From Eledone cirrhosa (Eukaryota), in contig OZ024743.1 of the NCBI GenBank assembly GCA_964016885.1, forward strand, positions 228,656,001 to 228,720,000: 64,000 nucleotides of DNA. Direction: 5' to 3'. Below are positions 4,956-43,957 of the stretch, in pieces. How positions within the stretch are numbered: the first letter of the stretch is position 1; every line of letters begins with the position of its first letter. A program made the translations under genes and the position numbers. Under the pieces are notes generated by a model, which ran no database searches, had not been told where the DNA came from, and was given only the letters and a program-made list of their open reading frames with translations.

Positions 4956-6945
4956 ATCATCATCATCATCATCATCATCAGGTTTAGCGTCCGTGTTCCA
5001 CGCTTGCATGGGTTTGGACGGGGGTTTTCCCACTTGAGGCAAGAGTGGTTGTCTTGCTCGCATAGGACTGTCTGGCGGGTTTTCTACAGTTGGATGCCCT
5101 TCCTAACACCAACCACATTTACAGTGTGGGGCTGGGAGGTTTTTACCGTGTTGCCTACACGGCCACATTACAGCGTGGACTGTCTGGCGGGTTTTCTACA
5201 GCTGGATGCCCTTCCTAACACCAACCACATTTACAGTGTGGGGCTGGGAGGTTTTTACCGTGTTGCCTACACGGCCACATTTACAGCGTGGACTGTGTGT
5301 TTTTTGTCGTGACACCTACACGATCTCATTTGTTTCGGCCTGGATGTTGTGGGACCAACATAACTTTACATTGAAAGGGGCGGTGTGGGTGGGGTGGAGG
5401 TGGTGGGACGGGGGTGTGTTTTGATAGAGATGCCTACTGACTGTAGTAGGTTTTTACTTTGTATTTAGGTAAGGCGGGTCTTCTCTATTACTGAGTACCG
5501 CCAAAGGTCTCGGTCCAGTGACATTGTCTTGGAGAGGTGTAAGCGTGTGAGGTCGGAATTTATCAGCTCGTCCCATGTTTTTCTGGGTCTACCTACTCCG
5601 TGGCTACCGTCTATCTTTATTGCCCTGCACTTTGTTATACAGCTGTCGTCTTTCATGCGCATCACGTGACCGTACCAACGTAGCCTTCTCTCGAGTAAAC
5701 AACATCTGATCCCTCTTATTTCTAATTTTTTCCTTAGTTCGTTTATGCTTAGCCGTTCACGTATATTACTATTGCACATCCAGCGGAGCATGCAAGCTTC
5801 GTTCCTCTCTAGTCTGCGTATATCCTCTGCACACAATGCCCAGGTCTCACTGCCATGCAGCATTGCTGTTCGTATGCAGGCATCGTATAACCTGCCTTTC
5901 ATTTTTAGGGAGAACCCTCTAGCGGCTAATAGTGGTATAAGCTCTCTGAACTTTTTCCATCTAGTTCTGACTCTAGCTACTGTACTTTCAGAGCACCCTC
6001 CCCCACTGCTGATTTTGTCACCCAGATAATGGAAGCTGTCCACTATTTCTATAGAACCCTCTGCGCAGTTGAAGGAGCTAGTATTTTGTGGGCACTTGCT
6101 GCTACTTATTGCACCAGAGCACCGGCCACATGTAAAATCTATGTTCTTAGTTAGCTTACCTGTGATCCCACTACATCTTTTATGCACCCATACTTTGCAT
6201 TTGGGACATAAAATGGAGTTTCTACCTACGCCTTTCCTACACACTGAGCATGGCCATTTCCCCGATGGGACCGCCGCCTTATTTTCTTTCCTACAAACTA
6301 GAACTTTAGTCTTAGCCAGGTTAATTTTAAGGCCTTTTGATTCTAGGCCGTGCTTCCACGTTTGGAATTTCTTCTCTAGTTCGGTCATTGATTCAGCTAT
6401 GAGCGTTAGATCATCTGCGTATAGGAGTTCCCATGGGCAGCCGGTCTTGAACTCCTCTGTTATAGCCTGAAGGGCAATAATAAATAGTAGGGGGCTAAGT
6501 ACAGAGCCCTGATGGACACCAACTTTTACGCTAAACTCTTCACTATATTCGTTGTTAATTCTAACCTTACTGACTGTTTCTTTATACATGGCTTGTATAG
6601 CTCTCACAAGCCATTCGTCAACACCTAGTTTTCTAAGAGACCACCAGATAATGGAACGGGGGACTCTGTCGAAGGCTTTCTCCAAGTCGACAAAAGCTAA
6701 GTATAGGGGTTTACTTTTAGCTAGGTACTTCTCCTGTAGTTGTCGTACAATGAAAAGAGCGTCTGTGGTACTTTTGCCTGACACAAACCCGAACTGCATT
6801 TCATCTAGATCAATTCTCTCTCTGATTAGTTGCGCTATTACTTTTTCCGTGACCTTCATGACCTGGTCGATTAATTTAATGCCTCTATAGTTACTCCTAT
6901 CTAGGGCATCTCCTTTTCCCTTATAGCAGTTAACGATGATGCTGC
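4956..6945 (-). mobile_element. RTE-clade LINE, family A, 5'-truncated copy with about 500 bp 3'UTR and (TGA)n tail
   Basis: RT ORF (NYRGIKL, QFGF, AFVDLEKAFD, GVHQGSVLSP, LLYADD, YLG, LRWYGHV); (CAT)n at 4956-4980 is the tail; the 5' end abuts (TA)n at 6946; a 112-bp tandem duplication lies in the 3'UTR (5065-5289). Confidence 0.95.
5465..6945 (-). CDS. Reverse transcriptase (5'-truncated RTE ORF) with embedded PHD-type finger
   Basis: Uninterrupted frame from CSIIVNCYKG to the stop; the N-terminal 33 aa of the ORF-track call are flanking sequence and microsatellite. Confidence 0.9.
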
Positions 6946-7101
6946 ATATATATATATACATATATATACATCGTTTTTTAGAGAGAGACATACTGGATGG
7001 GTTAGTAAATTCGTTGTTTACTGAGGAAGGCACCAAAATCAACACACTATGTTATGGCAGTGTATATACTAAGAAGAAAATGAGGTTTCACATTACAGTC
7101 T

Positions 7102-7213
7102 CTATTGATTATGCATAGTTATGACCATTTTACAGATGGGTGGCTCAGGATCCATATTAATGTTATGGATCTGACTCCAGTCCAATCTGCTCATCAGATT
7201 TATTAATCAATAA
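7102..7213 (-). ncRNA. Type I hammerhead-like motif in a fold-back element (7071-7322)
   Basis: CTGATGA at 7197-7191; stem II GCAGAT..GG/CCATCTGT; the inverted arm preserves GAAAC-AGT-CGTA-ACTG-T (7263 onward); stem I ttattgatta/taatcaata. Confidence 0.6.
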
Positions 7214-7332
7214 GAGGCAGGTCTATAACATTAACATGGAGGATCCTGAGCCACCCATCTGTGAAACAGTCGTAACTGTGCATAATCAATAAATACCTTA
7301 TTGTGAAACCTTGTTTTGTTCTCTCTCCCTCT

Positions 7333-7738: not shown

Positions 7739-7912
7739 AACTATATATATATATATATGGTAGATATGTGTGTAACTATAGTTGCAGGTGGTTTGCCAGT
7801 TAAAGCACTCAAACCCCACATGAGACAGACCCTCATAACATTATTATGTTTTAGTGCATTCTAGGGATTTGTAACAAACAGGAACAAAATCAAGGCTACA
7901 CCATAAATAAAC

Positions 7913-8007
7913 TTTATTGCATATGACAATTGTTTTGATATCAATCAGCTCAGGGTTTGATCATAATGATCAGGGCCCAACTCTGAATCAACATCTCATC
8001 AGATGTG
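7913..8007 (-). ncRNA. Type I hammerhead ribozyme motif (decayed) in a fold-back element (7873-8127)
   Basis: Minus strand: cacat-CTGATGA-stem II-(A)AAAC-AATT-GTC-atatg-c-AATAAA. Confidence 0.75.
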
Positions 8008-8128
8008 GGAGTTAAATTTCACAGGCACAGAATACAATGATCGAACCCTGAGCTGAACAATATCAAAACAATTGTCATATGCAATAAAGTCTATTTATGG
8101 TGAAACCTTGACTTCATTCCTGCTTAAT

Positions 8129-8172
<44 letters not shown>

Positions 8173-9278: not shown

Positions 9279-10439
9279 TGTATATATATCCAAACAGTTA
9301 GGAGTGAATCATTTGTTTTCTTGGTGAAACTACCACATTTCCAAGTAAAATCACAGAAAAATCATTCTGTTTATGATGGTTCATGCATATTCATTTATAC
9401 TAATAAATTTGGATCAAATCCCAGTCAACTTGAAAAATTATTCTAACCTCAGCTGTGTTGAAGTGTGATAAATATTTATAATAATGACAGCCACTATATT
9501 ATTCTATTAATAATATTCTATAGATATAATCCAACCCATGACCACCAGAGTTTAATCAAAACATAACAATAGTCATTCTACTTTAGAGCAAAAAAACAGA
9601 AAAATATAACAAAAAATTAACTAAAATAGACTAAATAAATAAAAGATGAATCATCATCATCCTCCCCCTTCTCATCACCATCAGCAGCACTATTTTACAT
9701 CTAATTTTCATGCTGGCAGGGTTTGATGGGTTGGCATATACTGTGATTAGACAAGTCAGATTACCATGTCTTGCTCATATGTTAAAAGTTTGGTACAGTA
9801 GTTATGGCTGGATGCCCTTCCTAATGCCAGCTATTTTACAGCATGTATTTTATCATGGCAGCAGCACTACAACTTTAAACAGTGAAATGAATGCATTTCA
9901 ACATGGCAGCAATACTATTATTTTATAGAGCCAACTAAGTATATTTTAGCATGGCATCAGCATTACAACTTTACAGAATTAACAGGGTGTTGCATAAGCA
10001 CTACCACTTTACAGCATAGTCCAGGTGATTTAATCATAGCACCAACATCAACCCTTTGCAGAGTACACTGGATGCATTTTAACATGGCCCAAACACCAGC
10101 ACTTTAGAAATTGCACTGGATGTATTTTATTGTGACACACACAACAGGGTGATCATTAATGTAAGAACATAAAACATAGCACAATGTTTATTGATAGAAA
10201 TATTAACTGGAGGAGTTAGAAAACTCAATAATTGTTACTACCTAGAACATAGAAGGTATGTTGAAACATATTTTACATTGAAATTACCATTTTATTCTTC
10301 TATTATGTCTGCCAATAAAGGAGGAGGAGTTGAAGTTACAAACAATGCTGCTGAGTCAATGATTACGGCCTCAGGTCTACAGAATTGAGAACACTAATCA
10401 CATTTAAGTTGTGAGAAAGGTTACAAACTCCACTTTATC

Positions 10440-26766: not shown

Positions 26767-29194
26767 GTTAGGCAGCGGGACAGGCAGATAGTGTCTAATA
26801 CCAAGGCATACCCTGGGGAATAATGTACCTCACAGCATAGGTTAGTTGTTAGTGATATCTCAGTAAGCAAGAGATGGAATGAGACATATAGGAAGGTGTG
26901 GAGAAGAAAGGTCTGGAAGCTAAAAGACCTTTCACTAAAATACAAATTTAGGAAAGCCCTTCAAGATGTATATGACGAAAAAGAAGACGATTTAGAGATG
27001 TATGACATAGATAATAACTGGAATTTCTTACGTGACAACTTGCTGCAGACTACTGATGAAACTTGTGGCTGGAGCAGAGCTCCAACCAGACAGAGAGTGA
27101 CCTGGTGGTGGAACAGCACAGTAGATAAGGCCATTATAGACAAAAGACTAGCATGGAAGGCTTGGAAAAAGGGTGGGAGTAGGGAAGAATATACAGCCAC
27201 TAAGAGAGAAGCTAGACGTCAGGTGTACTTAGCACGCAGAGAGGCGGAGAGTAGGAGGTTTGCCAATGTTCTGCGATGGGAAGATCAGAGGCGTGCGGTG
27301 TTCCACATTGCAAGGCAGTGTGTCAATGCAAATCAGGGTGTTGTTGGAGATAAATGTGTCCGGGATGATGCCGGTGTACTTAGTGTCACGAATGATCAGA
27401 AAAAGGAGGCCTGTAAATGTCATTATGAGAGACTGATGAATGTGGAGAACGAATGGGAGAGAGAGAAATTACCCTTAGTAGATCCGACAGAGGGACCAGC
27501 TATTGAGATTGACGAATATAAGGGTCCAAGAGGCGATTAGGGAAATGAAAAATGGTGAGGCTGCTGGACCATCGGGAATAGTTGCTGAGATGCTGAAGGT
27601 ATCAGGGGACGTAGGGACTAAACTGGTTGCACGCATCATCAATCAGGCTATATATGGTGGTGTCATACCCAAAGACTGGTGCAGCAGTATTCTCATAAAT
27701 TGCTACAAAGGTAAAGGGGATGCCCTGGAGAGGAGCAATTATAGGGGTATAAAACTGATAGATCAGGTTATGAAAGTGGCAGAAAGGATATTAGCACAAC
27801 TAATTAGAGAAAAGGTCAAACTAGATGAGATGCAGTTTGGTTTTGTGCCTGGGAAGAGTACAACAGATGCCCTCTTCTTGGTGAGACAATTGCAAGAGAG
27901 GTTCTTAGAAAAAAATAAGCCACTATACTTAGCCTTTGTTGACCTAGAGAAGGCCTTTGATAGGGTACCCCGATCTGTCATCTGGTGGTCCCTAAGGAAG
28001 CTAGGTGTTGAGGAATGGCTTGTGAGGACAGTGCAAACTTTGTACAGAGGTACTCTCAGTAAAGTCAGGGTAGGAATGGAGTTTAGTGAGGAATTCCAGA
28101 TACAAGTAGGAGTACATCAGGGTTCGGTCCTCAGCCCACTCTTGTTCATTATAGTTCTCCAAGCCATAACAGAGGAGTTTAAGGCTGGCTCTCCATGGGA
28201 ACTTCTCTATGCTGACGATCTGGTTCTTATAGCAGAATCAGTAGAGGAGCTAGAGAATAAATTCTGGCTATGGAAACAGCAGTTGGAAGCCAGAGGACTG
28301 AGAGTAAATCTAGCTAAGACAAAAGTGTTGATGAGTAGAAAAGAGGACAAAACCCTGATTCCGTCAGGGAAATGGCCATGTTCCATATGCAGAAAAGGAA
28401 CTGGCATAAATTCTATAAAATGCACACAATGCAGATCCTGGGTACACAAGAGATGTAGCGGGATAGCAGGCAAACTAACAGGTAGGGAGAAATATGTATG
28501 CAGTAGATGTACAGGGAAATTAGACAGTAGAAATCGCATTGATAGACACATTTTTCAAATGCAGGAGGGCGCCATAGAAGTAGTGGATAGCTTCCGGTAC
28601 CTAGGAGATCAGATTAGCATGGGAGGATGGTGTTCCGAGGCCATAGTATCTAGAATAAGGATTGGTTGGAAGAAGTTTAGGGAGCTGCTTCCTCTGTTAA
28701 TGAAGAACGGTTTCTCCCTGCGTACGAAAGGCCAGTTGTATGATGCCTGTGTCAGGAGTGCGAGGCTGCATGGTAGTGGGACATGGGCAGCAACTGAAGA
28801 GGATATGCGACGGCTGGAGAGAAATGAGGCAAGCATGCTTCGTTGGATGTGCAGTGTAAATGTGCGTGAACGACCCAGCATAAATGTGTTGAGAGAGAAA
28901 CTGTGTATGAGAGGGATAGAATGTAGTGTACGGGAGAGGAGACTGAGGTGGTATGGACATGTGATGCGCATGGAGGATGATCGATGGGTGAAGAAGTGCC
29001 AGGAAATGCCAGTTGAAGGAAGAAGTGGTAGAGGTAGACCACGAAATACATGGGCGGAGGTGGTGAGAACAGACCTCAGATCATTGAAGCTCATGGTGGA
29101 GATGACGAGCGACCGTGACGAGTGGAGAGATGCTGTGCTGAATAAGACCTAGCAGGGAAAAGCGAACGTAAAATGATGATGATGATGATGATGA
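26767..29194 (+). mobile_element. RTE-clade LINE, family B, truncated in the endonuclease C-terminus, with a stop and a frameshift
   Basis: KAYPGE*CTSQHRLVV (APE C-terminus), TWWWN linker, RT ORF 27503-29152 with YADD; very short 3'UTR GCAGGGAAAAGCGAACGTAAAA(TGA)n. Confidence 0.95.
26896..29152 (+). pseudogene. Frameshifted RTE ORF (linker + RT + PHD-type finger + thumb)
   Basis: ORFs 26896-27540 and 27503-29152 overlap with a frameshift near EGPAIEID. Confidence 0.9.
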
Positions 29195-30686: not shown

Positions 30687-31650
30687 ATCATCATCATCAT
30701 CATCATCAGCGTTTAACGTCCGTGTTCCACGCTTGCATGGGTTTGGACGGGGGTAGTCCCACTTGAGGCAAGAGTGATTGTCTTGCTCGCATAGGACTGT
30801 CTGGCAGGTTTTCTACAGTTGGATGCCCTTCCTAACACCAACCACATTTACAGTGTGGGTCTGGGAGGTTTTTACCGTGTTGCCTACACGGCCACATTAC
30901 AGCGTGGACTGTGTGTTTTTTTTGTCGTGACACCTACACGATCTCATTTGTTTCGGCCTCGATGGCGCGGCACCAACATAACTTTACATAGAACGGGGTG
31001 GTGTGGATCGGGTGGGGGTGGTGGGACGGGGTGTATTTGTTAGAGATGCCTACTGGCTGGAGTAGGTTTTACTATATATTTAGGTAAGGCGGGTCTTCTC
31101 TGTTACTGAGTACCGCCAAAGGTCTCGGTCCAGTGACATTGTCTTGGAGAGGTGTAAGTGTGTGATGTCGGAGTTTATCAGCTCGTCCCAGGTTTTTCTA
31201 GGTCTGCCTATTCCGTGACTACCGTCTATCTTTATTGCCCTGCACTTTGTTATACAGCTATCGACTTTCATGCGCATCACGTGTCCATACCAACGTAGCC
31301 TTCTCTCGAGTAAACAACATCTGATCCCTCTTATCTCTAATTTATTCCTTAGTTCGTTTATGCTTTGCCGTTCACGTATATTACTGTTACACATCCAGCG
31401 GAGCATGCAAGCTTCGTTCCTCTCTAGTCTGCGTATATCCTCTGCACACAATGCCCAGGTCTCACTGCCATGCAGCATTGCTGTTCGTATGCAGGCATCG
31501 TACAACCTGCCTTTCATTTTTAGTGAGAACCCTTTAGCAGCTAATAGTGGTATAAGCTCTCTGAACTTTTTCCAACCAGTTCTGACTCTAGCTACAGTAC
31601 TTTCAGAGCACCCTCCCCCACTGCTGATTTTATCGCCCAGGTAACGGAAG
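30687..31650 (-). mobile_element. RTE family A 3' fragment, tail-to-tail with the previous copy
   Basis: ORF 31080-31517, same 3'UTR, (CAT)n at about 30687-30708. Confidence 0.95.
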
Positions 31651-31697
31651 ATATATGTATTATATATATATATATGTATTATATATATCTATATATA

Positions 31698-35439: not shown

Positions 35440-37435
35440 CATCCGACCATAAATGCACAGCACACATCTACATTCATAAATACATAGTGAAAAGACATTC
35501 GTAAGTACATTGTACATGCATACATTCATAACTACACAGTACACATATACATTCAGAAATACACACATAATACACACATACATTCATAACTACACAGTAC
35601 ACATATACATTCAGTAATACACATACATTCATAACTACACAGTACACATATACATTCAGTAATACACACATAATACACACATACATTCATAAGTACACAC
35701 TACACATATACATTCAGTAATACACACATAATACACACATACATTCATAAGTACACACTACATATATACATTCAGGAATACACATACATTCATAAGTAGA
35801 CAGTACACACATAGATTCATAAATACACAGTGCATAGGTACATTCATAAATACAGAGTATATACATACATTTACAAATACACTGTACATACATACATTTA
35901 TAAGTATACAGTACATACATACATTTATAAATATACAGTACATACATACATATACATTTATAAATACACAGCATATACATACATTCATAAATACACTGTA
36001 CATACATACATATTTAAATATACAGTACATACATACATATACATTTATGTGTGTAGGAAAGGAGTAGGCAGAAACTCCATTTTATGTCCCAAATGCAAAG
36101 TATGGGTGCATAAAAGATGTAGTGGGATCACAGGTAAGCTAACTATGAATATAGATTTTATATGTGGCCGGTGCTCTGGTGCAATAAGTAGCAGCAAGTG
36201 CCCACAGAATACTAGCTTATTCCATTGCACAGATGGTTCTATAGAAATAGTGAACACCTTCCATTACCTGGGTGACAAAATCAGCAGTGGGGGAGGGTGC
36301 TCTGAAAGTACAGTAGCTAGAGTCAGAACGGGATGGAAAAGTTCAGAGAGCTTATACCACTATTGGCCGCTAAAGGGTTCTCTCTAAAAATGAAAGGCAG
36401 GCTGTATGATGCCTGCATACAAACATCAATGTTACATGGCAGTGAGACATGGGCATTGTGTGCAGAGGATATACGCAGACTGGAGAGGAACGAAGCTTGC
36501 ATGCTCCGCTGGATGTGTAATAGTAATATACGTGAACGGCAAAGCATAAATGAACTAAGGGAGAAAATAGGAATAAGAGGGATCAGATGTTGTTTACTCG
36601 AGAGAAGACTACGTTGGTACGGTCACGTGATGCGCATGAAAGACGACAGCTGTATAAAAAAGTGCAGGGCGATAAAAATAGACGGTAGCCACGGAGTAGG
36701 CAGACCCAGAAAAACCTGGGACGACTTGATAAATTGCGACCTCACACACTTACACCTCTCCAAGACAATGTCACTGGACCGAGATCTTTGGCGCTACACA
36801 GTAATACAGAAGACCCGCCTTGCCTAAGTACAAAGTGAAACCTACAGTCAGTAGGCACCTCTAACAAAAATACATCCCTGTCCCACTACCCCCACCCCAT
36901 CCACACCACCCACTTCAATGTGAAGTTATGTTGGTACCACAACATCCAGTCCGAAACAAATGAGGTCGTGTAGGTGTCACGACAAAAAAACACACAGTCC
37001 ACGCTGTAATGTGGCCGTGTAGGTAACACAGTAAAAACCTCCCAGTTCCACACTGTAAACGTGGTTGGTGTTAGGAAGGGCATCCAGCCGTAGAAAACCC
37101 GTCAGACAGTCCTATACGAGCAAGACAACCACTCTTGCCTCAAGTGGGAAAACTCCCATCTAAACCCATGCAAGTGTGGAAGATGGACGTTAAACGATGA
37201 TGATGATGATGAAACATACATTCATAAATACACAGTACATACATAAATTTATAAATATACAGTACATACATACATACATATACATATATAAATACACAGT
37301 ATATACATACATACATAAATACACAGTACATACATACATTTATAAATATACAGTACATACATACATATACATTTATAATTATAAATACACAGTATATACA
37401 TACATTCATAAATACATAGTACATACATAAATGTA
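35440..37435. repeat. About 32-bp minisatellite (cattcataaatacacagtacatacata) split by the LINE at 36049-37212
   Basis: Same unit on both sides of the LINE. Confidence 0.85.
36049..37212 (+). mobile_element. RTE family A 3' fragment inserted into a minisatellite
   Basis: CRKGVGRNSILCPKC... with a frameshift, ORF 36333-36827, 3'UTR and (TGA)n. Confidence 0.95.
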
Positions 37436-38216
37436 CAAATACAAATTGGCATTTATTTACTCAAGCAATCAGCTGGAATGTTTTCTAGTTTTCTAATATA
37501 ATACAAATATAATATCATAATACAAATACAATATATTTCCACAATAATAACAATCACAACTACTACTATTAGTACTATAATAGCATGATTGATTATTGAA
37601 GTTTAGCTTATCAACAACTACTTAGGTATTGCATTAGTAGTATAGAATATAAATGGGATCACGTGATGTTTCAACATATTTTCAGATTCTATTAACAAAA
37701 TTATGTTTAAATGATATGAGAAAATAGAAGTATGTTATTATATACATTCATTTACTATTTTTTTCTTTCTTTTCATTCAACAATAAATATTTAAATATAA
37801 AAGACAGTATTAGTTTATAAACCAAATTCTTTTCAACTATATATGTATATATGCATATGTGAGTGTATTTGACAGTATGCATATAGATATTTATACATAT
37901 TTATTTGTGTATAATTACATATGCATATATATACATATATATATATATATACACATACATACATACATTATACATATATATGCATACACATATATATATG
38001 AAGTATTTCCATTGAAAGGTTAAAGGAAGGGAGAGTGCTCTATGAATGCTACAGAGCTATTAAAATTTTCATTCTGATGAACGATTTCTGTTGAGCTCAC
38101 CTGTCTTCGTGAAACCTTTGGTAAATGGAATAATTGTATTGAGTTGTTTATTACATAATCATATATATATATGATGATGATGTATATATATGTATATATA
38201 TTTGTATATATATATA

Positions 38217-43355: not shown

Positions 43356-43458
43356 ATATATATATATATATATAATGTATAATAAACAATACAATATAAT
43401 TACCTCATTACCAGAGGTTTCCCGAATAAGATGAATACGTCCTCATTCGTTTGTCAGA

Positions 43459-43540
43459 CAATTGTCTGACGAACGAATGAGGACGTTTCTTGTATTCGTC
43501 TTATTCGGGAAACCTCTGGTAATGAGGTAATTATATTGTA
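43459..43540 (+). ncRNA. Hammerhead ribozyme motif in a palindromic element (43373-43632)
   Basis: CTGACGA (43466-72), CGAATGAG-GACG/CGTC-TTATTCG stem II, GAAAC-CTC-tggtaat-GAG-GTA. Confidence 0.7.
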
Positions 43541-43957
43541 TTGTTTATTATACATTAAATTTAGCTCTGTAACTTACATAGAGCACTCTTCACTCCTATG
43601 ACTTTTTCAATTTTCAACGGAAACTTCAATACTTATATATATATATATATAGGAAGTGTGGTAAGGAACCAGGTGGACCATAATGCACCAGAGTACTTGA
43701 TACTTTGGGTAGTAGAGTGGATAATAGAAAAGGTTCAGGACCCCGACGGCAGAGCTCAAGCCGTTTCGACGGCTATTTCTGGACTAAATTAGATTTTTAG
43801 CGTGGTAATAAATAGCCAAATATTTCAAAGGGTAATTCCATACATGGACATGTGATAATCATACCTTTCTGAAGATTGTAGTTGTTATTATTACTATGCA
43901 AGCAGGGAAAAGCAGATGTAAAATGATATATATATATTATTACTATATATATATATA

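What the first reader, a model, noticed from the sequence alone, without database searches (positions are those of the whole stretch)
7873..8127. Clearest PLE-type minimal hammerhead in the window, with inverted 3' duplicate
Minus strand: cacat CTGATGA gatgttgattcag...ctga..atatc AAAAC AATT GTC atatg c AATAAA. The only core defect, GAAA to AAAA, is what CpG decay of atcGAAAC would give. A one-base-pair stem III closing a palindromic tetraloop is typical of Penelope-associated dimer-cleaving hammerheads. Arms are about 85 bp (7879-7964 vs 8037-8122).
Basis: partly seen in the sequence, partly recalled or inferred. Interest (0 to 1): 0.72.

Follow-up and report, generated by a model that had tools for sequence, protein, structure and literature searches.

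The report
Dead hammerhead in Penelope retrotransposon stub
This is the decayed, mirror-image tail end of an old Penelope-like jumping gene inserted in a TA repeat; its relatives keep a textbook-shaped hammerhead ribozyme, but this copy has lost a core base and part of a stem and is predicted to be folded shut by its own mirror arm, so it is an ordinary, likely dead example of a known design.

Summary
The motif is real. It is one decayed copy of a dispersed repeat (1,038 first-look candidates). The family carries a minimal type I hammerhead with an 8-nt palindromic stem III. The G of GAAA is kept in 24 of 36 exact genome matches, and every A there follows C, so GAAA to AAAA is CpG decay. Longer copies continue upstream into a decayed Hydra-type GIY-YIG endonuclease frame. 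The insertion spans 7759-8131: a long sense arm and a short inverted arm, between TA repeats. This layout is published. One extra result: in 25 of 27 scorable two-armed loci one arm ends about 139 nt beyond the other; published tails are 30-40 nt. The scan already reported this one-long-one-short pattern for other families in this genome. Verdict: new family of a known kind, low interest.

The parts
7759..8036 (-). Long (sense) arm: 5'-truncated 3' end (pseudo-LTR plus tail) of a Hydra-type Penelope-like element, family positions about -92 to +205 counted from A13 of the ribozyme
   Evidence: Alignment to the family majority; ends at the family's long terminus
7919..8008 (-). Decayed minimal type I hammerhead: stem I 5' strand 8008-8003, core 8002-7996, stem II with 57-nt insert, G12 changed to A at 7936, stem III C-AAUU-G, cleavage site position between 7925 and 7924, stem I 3' strand 7924-7919
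7926..7933 (-). 8-nt palindrome (A15.1 to U16.1) predicted to form stem III between two RNA molecules
   Evidence: Self-duplex -6.4 kcal/mol; design described in PMC4209133
7913..7918 (-). AATAAA just after stem I; the family majority, but copies end in TA repeats, not poly(A), so no evidence that it is used
7759..7875 (-). Tail (family +67 to +205), here with two deletions (+61 to +81, +88 to +94) that remove the 5' strand of the tail hairpin
8037..8131 (+). Short inverted arm: second copy of the 3' half of the ribozyme and downstream sequence, ending at the family's short terminus (+66); also has A at G12
8030..8040 (.). Head-to-head junction; the two family strands share a 5-nt word here, decayed in this copy (possible microhomology join, inferred)
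7742..7758 (.). (TA)n flank at the long end
8132..8168 (.). (TG)n(TA)n flank at the short end

Best explanation
The stretch 7759-8131 is a two-armed, head-to-head insertion of the 3' end of an old Penelope-like retrotransposon family with a Hydra-type endonuclease, and its hammerhead is likely dead: G12 was lost by CpG decay, stem I is broken, and the mirror arm is predicted to pair with the ribozyme's 3' half. Shown: family membership, the ancestral GAAA, the CpG pattern, the link to the endonuclease frame, two fixed 3' ends about 139 nt apart, one per arm, and TA flanks. Inferred from PMC11167929: the element's protein cut both strands of a TA repeat, each 3' end primed reverse transcription at one of two internal start sites, both cDNAs stopped early and were joined head to head. 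Inferred from PMC4209133: in the active element the ribozyme worked weakly, as a dimer or with protein help, to process the element's RNA.
For: Dispersed family, copies about 14% (median) from the majority. G12 kept in 24 of 36 exact matches, all 12 A cases after C. In 43 full-length copies CpG sites changed 212 of 631 (189 transitions) against 646 of 5,022 elsewhere; G12 (17 A of 43) lies within the range of other CpG G's (4-17 of 43). 19 of 43 copies keep all core bases and 11 of 43 also keep both stems. Endonuclease frame on the same strand upstream of the family 3' region in L060, L061, L062, L064 (tblastn E 3e-18, 1e-13, 2e-13, 2e-5); the ribozyme itself is seen about 1 kb downstream in L060, L062, L064. 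One long and one short end in 21 loci and 4 new loci. The whole insertion folds to a -167.5 kcal/mol hairpin with the ribozyme 3' half paired to the arm at probability 1.0. Inverted 5' copy, one-sided tail and (TA)n targets are published.
Against: No copy was found in which this hammerhead is joined to the RT core; only thumb-end, linker and endonuclease were seen, all decayed. Covariation in the stems does not exceed shuffles (pairs with a double change: 4 observed, 4.6 shuffled), and RNAalifold did not recover the hammerhead. Single intact copies fold only modestly better than shuffles (z +0.5 to -2.5). Pfam named none of the five proteins scanned, so clade assignment rests on motifs read against the paper. 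Two loci have two long ends (L157, L162). The roughly 1 kb between endonuclease and ribozyme is long for elements said to be under 3 kb.
Confidence: 0.88

Rival explanations
1. A MITE (non-autonomous DNA transposon) with 89-bp terminal inverted repeats; the hammerhead look is incidental.
For: About 250-bp unit with long inverted arms and TA on both sides.
Against: The arms are unequal (one runs about 139 nt further); the inner junction differs from copy to copy; many copies have one arm only and some extend more than 1 kb upstream into an endonuclease frame.
Confidence: 0.02
2. A non-autonomous retrozyme (small ribozyme-bearing circle or tandem repeat) moved in trans by a Penelope RT.
For: Most copies are under 300 bp and non-coding; the preprint 10.64898/2026.07.22.740005 (abstract, introduction and start of methods seen) derives animal retrozymes from PLE ends; no RT core was found joined to this family.
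Against: No locus among 59 holds two same-strand ribozymes; 5' ends are scattered, as in truncation, and run into a coding frame; no long end continued into element sequence in 30 tail-query loci.
Confidence: 0.07
3. A source element that already had AAAA spread on its own, showing that the ribozyme is dispensable for mobility.
For: Both window arms carry A at G12, their only shared derived base; ribozyme mutants did not block insertion in vitro for an anole element (PMC11167929).
Against: A-bearing copies share no other variant after 153 tests (best p 0.011). Among 13 pairs covering the site, 4 have A in both arms, 3 in one and 6 in none, against about 2.3 expected for both (counted). G12 changes at the ordinary CpG rate.
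Confidence: 0.05
4. This copy is a host-used ribozyme or hairpin RNA.
For: Strong predicted hairpin.
Against: Core G lost, stem I broken, arms 12% diverged with no sign of homogenisation (1 shared derived base against 2.5 expected for random copies).
Confidence: 0.02

Closest known systems
Hydra clade of C-terminal EN+ Penelope-like elements, including Hydra-1_Obim of Octopus bimaculoides (Craig et al. 2021, PMC8557442; passages, section 11, supplement part 2 and search hits seen)
   Same: Endonuclease at the C-terminus with CxCX5C linker and CxxC / CxH motifs; hammerhead near the 3' end; (TA)n targets; inverted 5'-truncated copy (listed for Penelope-13_HM).
   Different: Different family: its hammerhead differs from the Hydra-1_Obim one printed in file S2 (57-nt helix II insert here against a short one; cleavage triplet GUC against GUU); about 1 kb between endonuclease and ribozyme; tail about 139 nt.
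Metazoan PLE minimal hammerheads (Cervera and de la Pena 2014, PMC4209133; parts 1-2 of 4 read)
   Same: Type I, long helix II with G10.1-C11.1, palindromic helix III, scattered single motifs and close pairs on opposite strands.
   Different: No extra base between positions 9 and 10.1; helix I is 6 bp in the family; the window copy is decayed.
Two-site internal reverse transcription start in Poseidon_Ac (Frangieh et al. 2024, PMC11167929; parts 1-2 of 4 read) and the one-sided tail of Adineta Penelopes (PMC3846280; passages)
   Same: Two fixed 3' ends; tail on one arm only; AT-rich target; both target strands extended in vitro.
   Different: Those tails are 30-40 nt; here the two ends lie about 139 nt apart, and the clade is Hydra, not Penelope/Poseidon.

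Membership tests
Type I hammerhead ribozyme | CUGANGA core | tested here: met
   8002-7996 minus strand
Type I hammerhead ribozyme | GAAA core in the window copy | tested here: not met
   A at 7936; also A in the second arm
Type I hammerhead ribozyme | GAAA core in the family | tested here: met
   G in 24 of 36 exact matches, 26 of 43 copies
Type I hammerhead ribozyme | NUH cleavage triplet | tested here: met
   GUC at 7927-7925; U in 43 of 43, C in 36 of 43
Type I hammerhead ribozyme | Stem I closing the core in the window copy | tested here: not met
   2 contiguous pairs then a C-A mismatch; family majority has 6
Type I hammerhead ribozyme | Stems supported by covariation | tested here: inconclusive
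   88.7% of cells pair against 15-39% for slid controls, but double changes are not above shuffles (37 of the 43 copies given)
Type I hammerhead ribozyme | Self-cleavage | not testable with these tools
   Needs an in vitro assay
Metazoan PLE minimal hammerhead (PMC4209133) | Palindromic 15.2-16.2 and loop 3 | tested here: met
   8-nt palindrome intact in the window copy
Metazoan PLE minimal hammerhead (PMC4209133) | Long helix II starting with G10.1-C11.1 | tested here: met
   9 pairs
Metazoan PLE minimal hammerhead (PMC4209133) | Extra base between positions 9 and 10.1 (usual trait) | tested here: not met
   G directly after A9 pairs with the C before G12
Hydra-clade PLE (PMC8557442) | C-terminal GIY-YIG endonuclease upstream of the ribozyme, same strand | tested here: met
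   L060, L062, L064; the window copy itself is too short to hold it (no tblastn hit in the window)
Hydra-clade PLE (PMC8557442) | CxCX5C linker | tested here: met
   Visible but broken in L064; intact in related families L118, L120, L122
Hydra-clade PLE (PMC8557442) | CxxC and CxH around the conserved E and N; no CCHH | tested here: met
   CxxC in L060; the E, N and CxH block in L114 and related families; absence of CCHH judged by eye on decayed frames
Hydra-clade PLE (PMC8557442) | RWK and DKT motifs in the RT | tested here: inconclusive
   Seen (RWR, DKT) only in L122, another family with a related endonuclease; no RT core found joined to this hammerhead
Hydra-clade PLE (PMC8557442) | (TA)n insertion | tested here: met
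   Both window flanks and most copy ends
Hydra-clade PLE (PMC8557442) | Length under 3 kb with a single ORF | tested here: inconclusive
   No full-length copy found
EN+ PLE insertion structure | Inverted 5'-truncated copy and a tail at one end only | tested here: met
   Window; 25 of 27 scorable two-armed loci
EN+ PLE insertion structure | Tail of 30-40 bp | tested here: not met
   Ends at about +66 and +205, so about 139 nt
MITE | Equal terminal inverted repeats around a fixed interior | tested here: not met
   Unequal arms, variable junctions
Non-LTR retrozyme | Head-to-tail tandem units each with a hammerhead | tested here: not met
   0 of 59 loci with two same-strand ribozymes

The most novel reading that the evidence does not exclude
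Every two-armed insertion of this family is made in one event by a two-part enzyme whose halves start copying at two different fixed sites, one on each cut strand, and here those sites lie about 139 nt apart, three to four times the published tail; a bulged hairpin 6 nt past the short end marks the near site and the far site lies in the first codons of the next ORF. The tail would then be set by RNA marks, not by a fixed enzyme geometry.
Probability: 0.45. Interest if true: 0.42.

Novelty: new member of a known kind. Interest (0 to 1): 0.2.

Why it matters
The locus itself matters little: it is a fossil of a described kind of element. The family adds two small things. First, it is a clean natural record of a ribozyme core decaying at the neutral CpG rate after insertion. 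Second, its two 3' ends lie about 139 nt apart and are split one per arm in 25 of 27 scorable loci. That fits a both-strand, two-start-site model of Penelope insertion, and the long spacing would make the two start sites easy to separate in an in vitro assay.

Tried and rejected
Rfam scan of the window: no hammerhead among the 150 rows shown. RNAalifold on 37 copies: no hammerhead consensus. Covariation: not above shuffles. Pfam on five endonuclease/RT translations: no family. Search for an RT core joined to this family: two DNA walks upstream and one protein search reached only thumb-end, linker and endonuclease; L112 has an RT piece beside a related endonuclease but no ribozyme. Search for a copy running past the long end: none in 30 loci. 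An 'AAAA sub-lineage': not supported. Arm homogenisation: arms share 53 derived bases over 13 pairs against 21.5 expected, but many are variants that recur in other copies (sub-family marks, by inspection) and the window pair shares only 1; not pursued. Selection on the core after insertion: non-CpG core positions changed 19 of 312 against 265 of 2,531 in loop and downstream (p 0.012), but core G and C changed as often as G and C elsewhere, and sub-family differences inflate the comparison; not claimed. The larger gap (17 of 430 against 345 of 2,137) comes from copies chosen by their core and was discarded. My first descriptor script missed 38074 through a regex fault, fixed. Earlier findings near this place and by sequence: none.

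Full report
Observation. The minus strand holds the motif as described: core CTGATGA at 8002-7996, a nine-pair stem II base, AAAA at 7936-7933 where a hammerhead needs GAAA, C-AATT-G, then UC and the stem I 3' strand. An inverted copy lies at 8037-8125 against 7876-7964, with 78 of 89 bases complementary. The window is G000:C4:228656001-228720000 in a 3.0-Gb animal genome. I did not determine the species; an octopus-like host is my recalled impression from the repeats, not a result.

It is a repeat family. A search with 7875-8030 gave 1,038 first-look candidates, of which 40 were scored. From the 152 loci then held I recovered 72 instances of the 3' core in 59 loci; copies lie a median 14% from the majority. 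The majority in 43 full-length copies is a type I hammerhead with a 6-bp stem I, a 9-bp stem II base and GAAA-C-AAUU-G-UC. 19 of 43 keep all core bases and 11 of 43 also keep both stems. These 43 were chosen partly by their 5' core, so those fractions run high.

CpG decay. A genome-wide pattern with the C and G left free gave 36 exact matches and 0 for the reversed control: CG 15, CA 12, TG 6, AG 2, GG 1, TA 0 (the 12 include the window copy and one apparent duplicate pair). In the alignment CpG sites changed 212 of 631 times, 189 by transition, against 646 of 5,022 elsewhere; G12 (17 A of 43) behaves like other CpG G's, also in 35 instances chosen by overall similarity only (12 of 35). A-bearing copies share no other variant beyond chance, so there is no sign of an AAAA sub-lineage.

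The window copy is likely dead for three reasons: G12 is gone; stem I has only 2 contiguous pairs; and in a read-through transcript the inverted arm, which comes first, is predicted to pair with the whole 3' half of the ribozyme (probability 1.0, -167.5 kcal/mol). Putting back the G alone would not be expected to revive it in place. The cleanest hammerhead in the window is 38074(+), from another family. For intact relatives the monomer hammerhead fold lies 6.2-7.6 kcal/mol above the MFE in four copies with the palindrome (2.5 in one without it), while the 8-nt palindrome gives a -6.4 kcal/mol duplex. This fits the dimer design of PMC4209133 (parts 1-2 of 4 read). Against: covariation is not above shuffles, RNAalifold misses the fold and single-copy z-scores are modest.

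Parent element. Two copies share 700 bp upstream. Walking further reached a decayed frame with the end of the RT thumb, a CxCX5C-type linker and a GIY-YIG-type endonuclease on the ribozyme strand in L060, L061, L062 and L064, about 1 kb before the ribozyme in three of them. These motifs define the Hydra clade in PMC8557442 (section 11). That paper's supplement lists Hydra-1_Obim from Octopus bimaculoides, with (TA)n targets and a different hammerhead. The endonuclease query had 40,506 first-look candidates in this genome. A related family in L122 shows RWR and DKT in its RT. No RT core was found joined to this hammerhead and Pfam named none of the proteins, so 'Hydra clade' rests on the endonuclease and linker.

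Insertion anatomy. The insertion spans 7759-8131, more than the finding, and has TA repeats on both sides. Family 3' ends cluster at about +66 and +205 from A13. Of 30 two-armed loci, 25 have one short arm and one arm that runs past the short end (21, 4 new; in 22 the long arm reaches +198 or beyond, one of them interrupted; three stop at +121 to +172). Two have two long ends: L157, which also holds a 17-nt short-end remnant, and L162, a perfect mirror duplicate. Three could not be scored (L017, L073, L180). The second sample was drawn with the tail as query, so it cannot show short/short cases; the first can, and showed none. An inverted 5' copy with a tail at one end is published (PMC8557442 passages; PMC3846280 passages), and PMC11167929 (parts 1-2 of 4) shows in vitro that the tail lies between two internal start sites, that both target strands are cut and extended, and that ribozyme mutants still insert. 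The tail here is about 139 nt; those papers give 30-40. I found no longer tail in five searches, but older subscription reviews, Repbase and preprint supplements were out of reach.

Earlier notes of this scan report the same architecture for other families in this genome and point to a small bulged tail hairpin. I checked it here: the majority has ACTC at +73 to +76 and GAGTAC at +103 to +108, starting about 6 nt past the short end, and a similar motif is visible in the Hydra-2_Amil sequence shown. The MFE fold of the majority tail pairs these bases otherwise, and I did not test covariation, so this is a motif match only. The window copy has lost the 5' strand by deletion. I saw no second hairpin after the long end, because no copy continues past it. 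One frame of the tail ends in NYSYTHIY, which resembles by eye the ORF starts printed; this is a weak lead.

Mechanism, most likely. The element's protein cut both strands of a TA repeat (inferred); each end primed copying of the element's RNA at one of two internal sites (inferred; the two ends are shown); both copies stopped within 100-300 nt and were joined head to head, perhaps at a 5-nt shared word (inferred); the insertion then decayed neutrally (shown for CpG sites). In the active element the ribozyme likely processed the RNA weakly as a dimer or with protein help (from the papers; untested here).

Verdict. Interest 0.2.

Noticed in passing
window 38040-38165 (+), core at 38074: Hammerhead with intact core, 7-pair stem I and 4-pair stem II, the only strict descriptor hit in the window; another dispersed family (1,170 first-look candidates), ending in TA repeats, several copies two-armed.
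   Followed up: partly
window 43367-43563: Head-to-head two-armed insertion (89% self-complementary) with CTGACGA at 43466 and GAAA downstream; 3' part 81% like the 38-kb family; the inversion removed the 5' strand of stem I.
   Followed up: partly
window 7103-7291: Another fold-back of about 190 bp, with CTGATGA on the minus strand at 7197 and an AAAA core; weak match to the relaxed descriptor.
   Followed up: no
window 5465-7051 (-), 26824-29152 (+), 31080-31688 (-), 35815-36387 (+): Open frames of LINE-type reverse transcriptases with a YADD motif; RTE-like by my recall, not tested.
   Followed up: no
L031, L032, L073, L140 and L132, L139, L146, L148: At least two sub-families of the same hammerhead family that differ in the helix II insert and downstream but keep core and stems.
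   Followed up: partly
L122 (G000:C3:377521500-377528500): Long Hydra-type RT and endonuclease frames (718 and 306 codons, offset) of another family; Pfam has no model that matches them.
   Followed up: partly
L162/L163 (G000:C3 near 119,799,500-119,800,100): Perfect mirror duplication of a whole two-armed insertion; recent palindromic duplication or assembly artefact.
   Followed up: no
whole family: CpG sites changed about 2.6 times as often as other sites, which suggests these repeats were methylated in the germ line at some time.
   Followed up: no
window 9843-10123: Degenerate repeats of about 48 bp, four to five copies.
   Followed up: no
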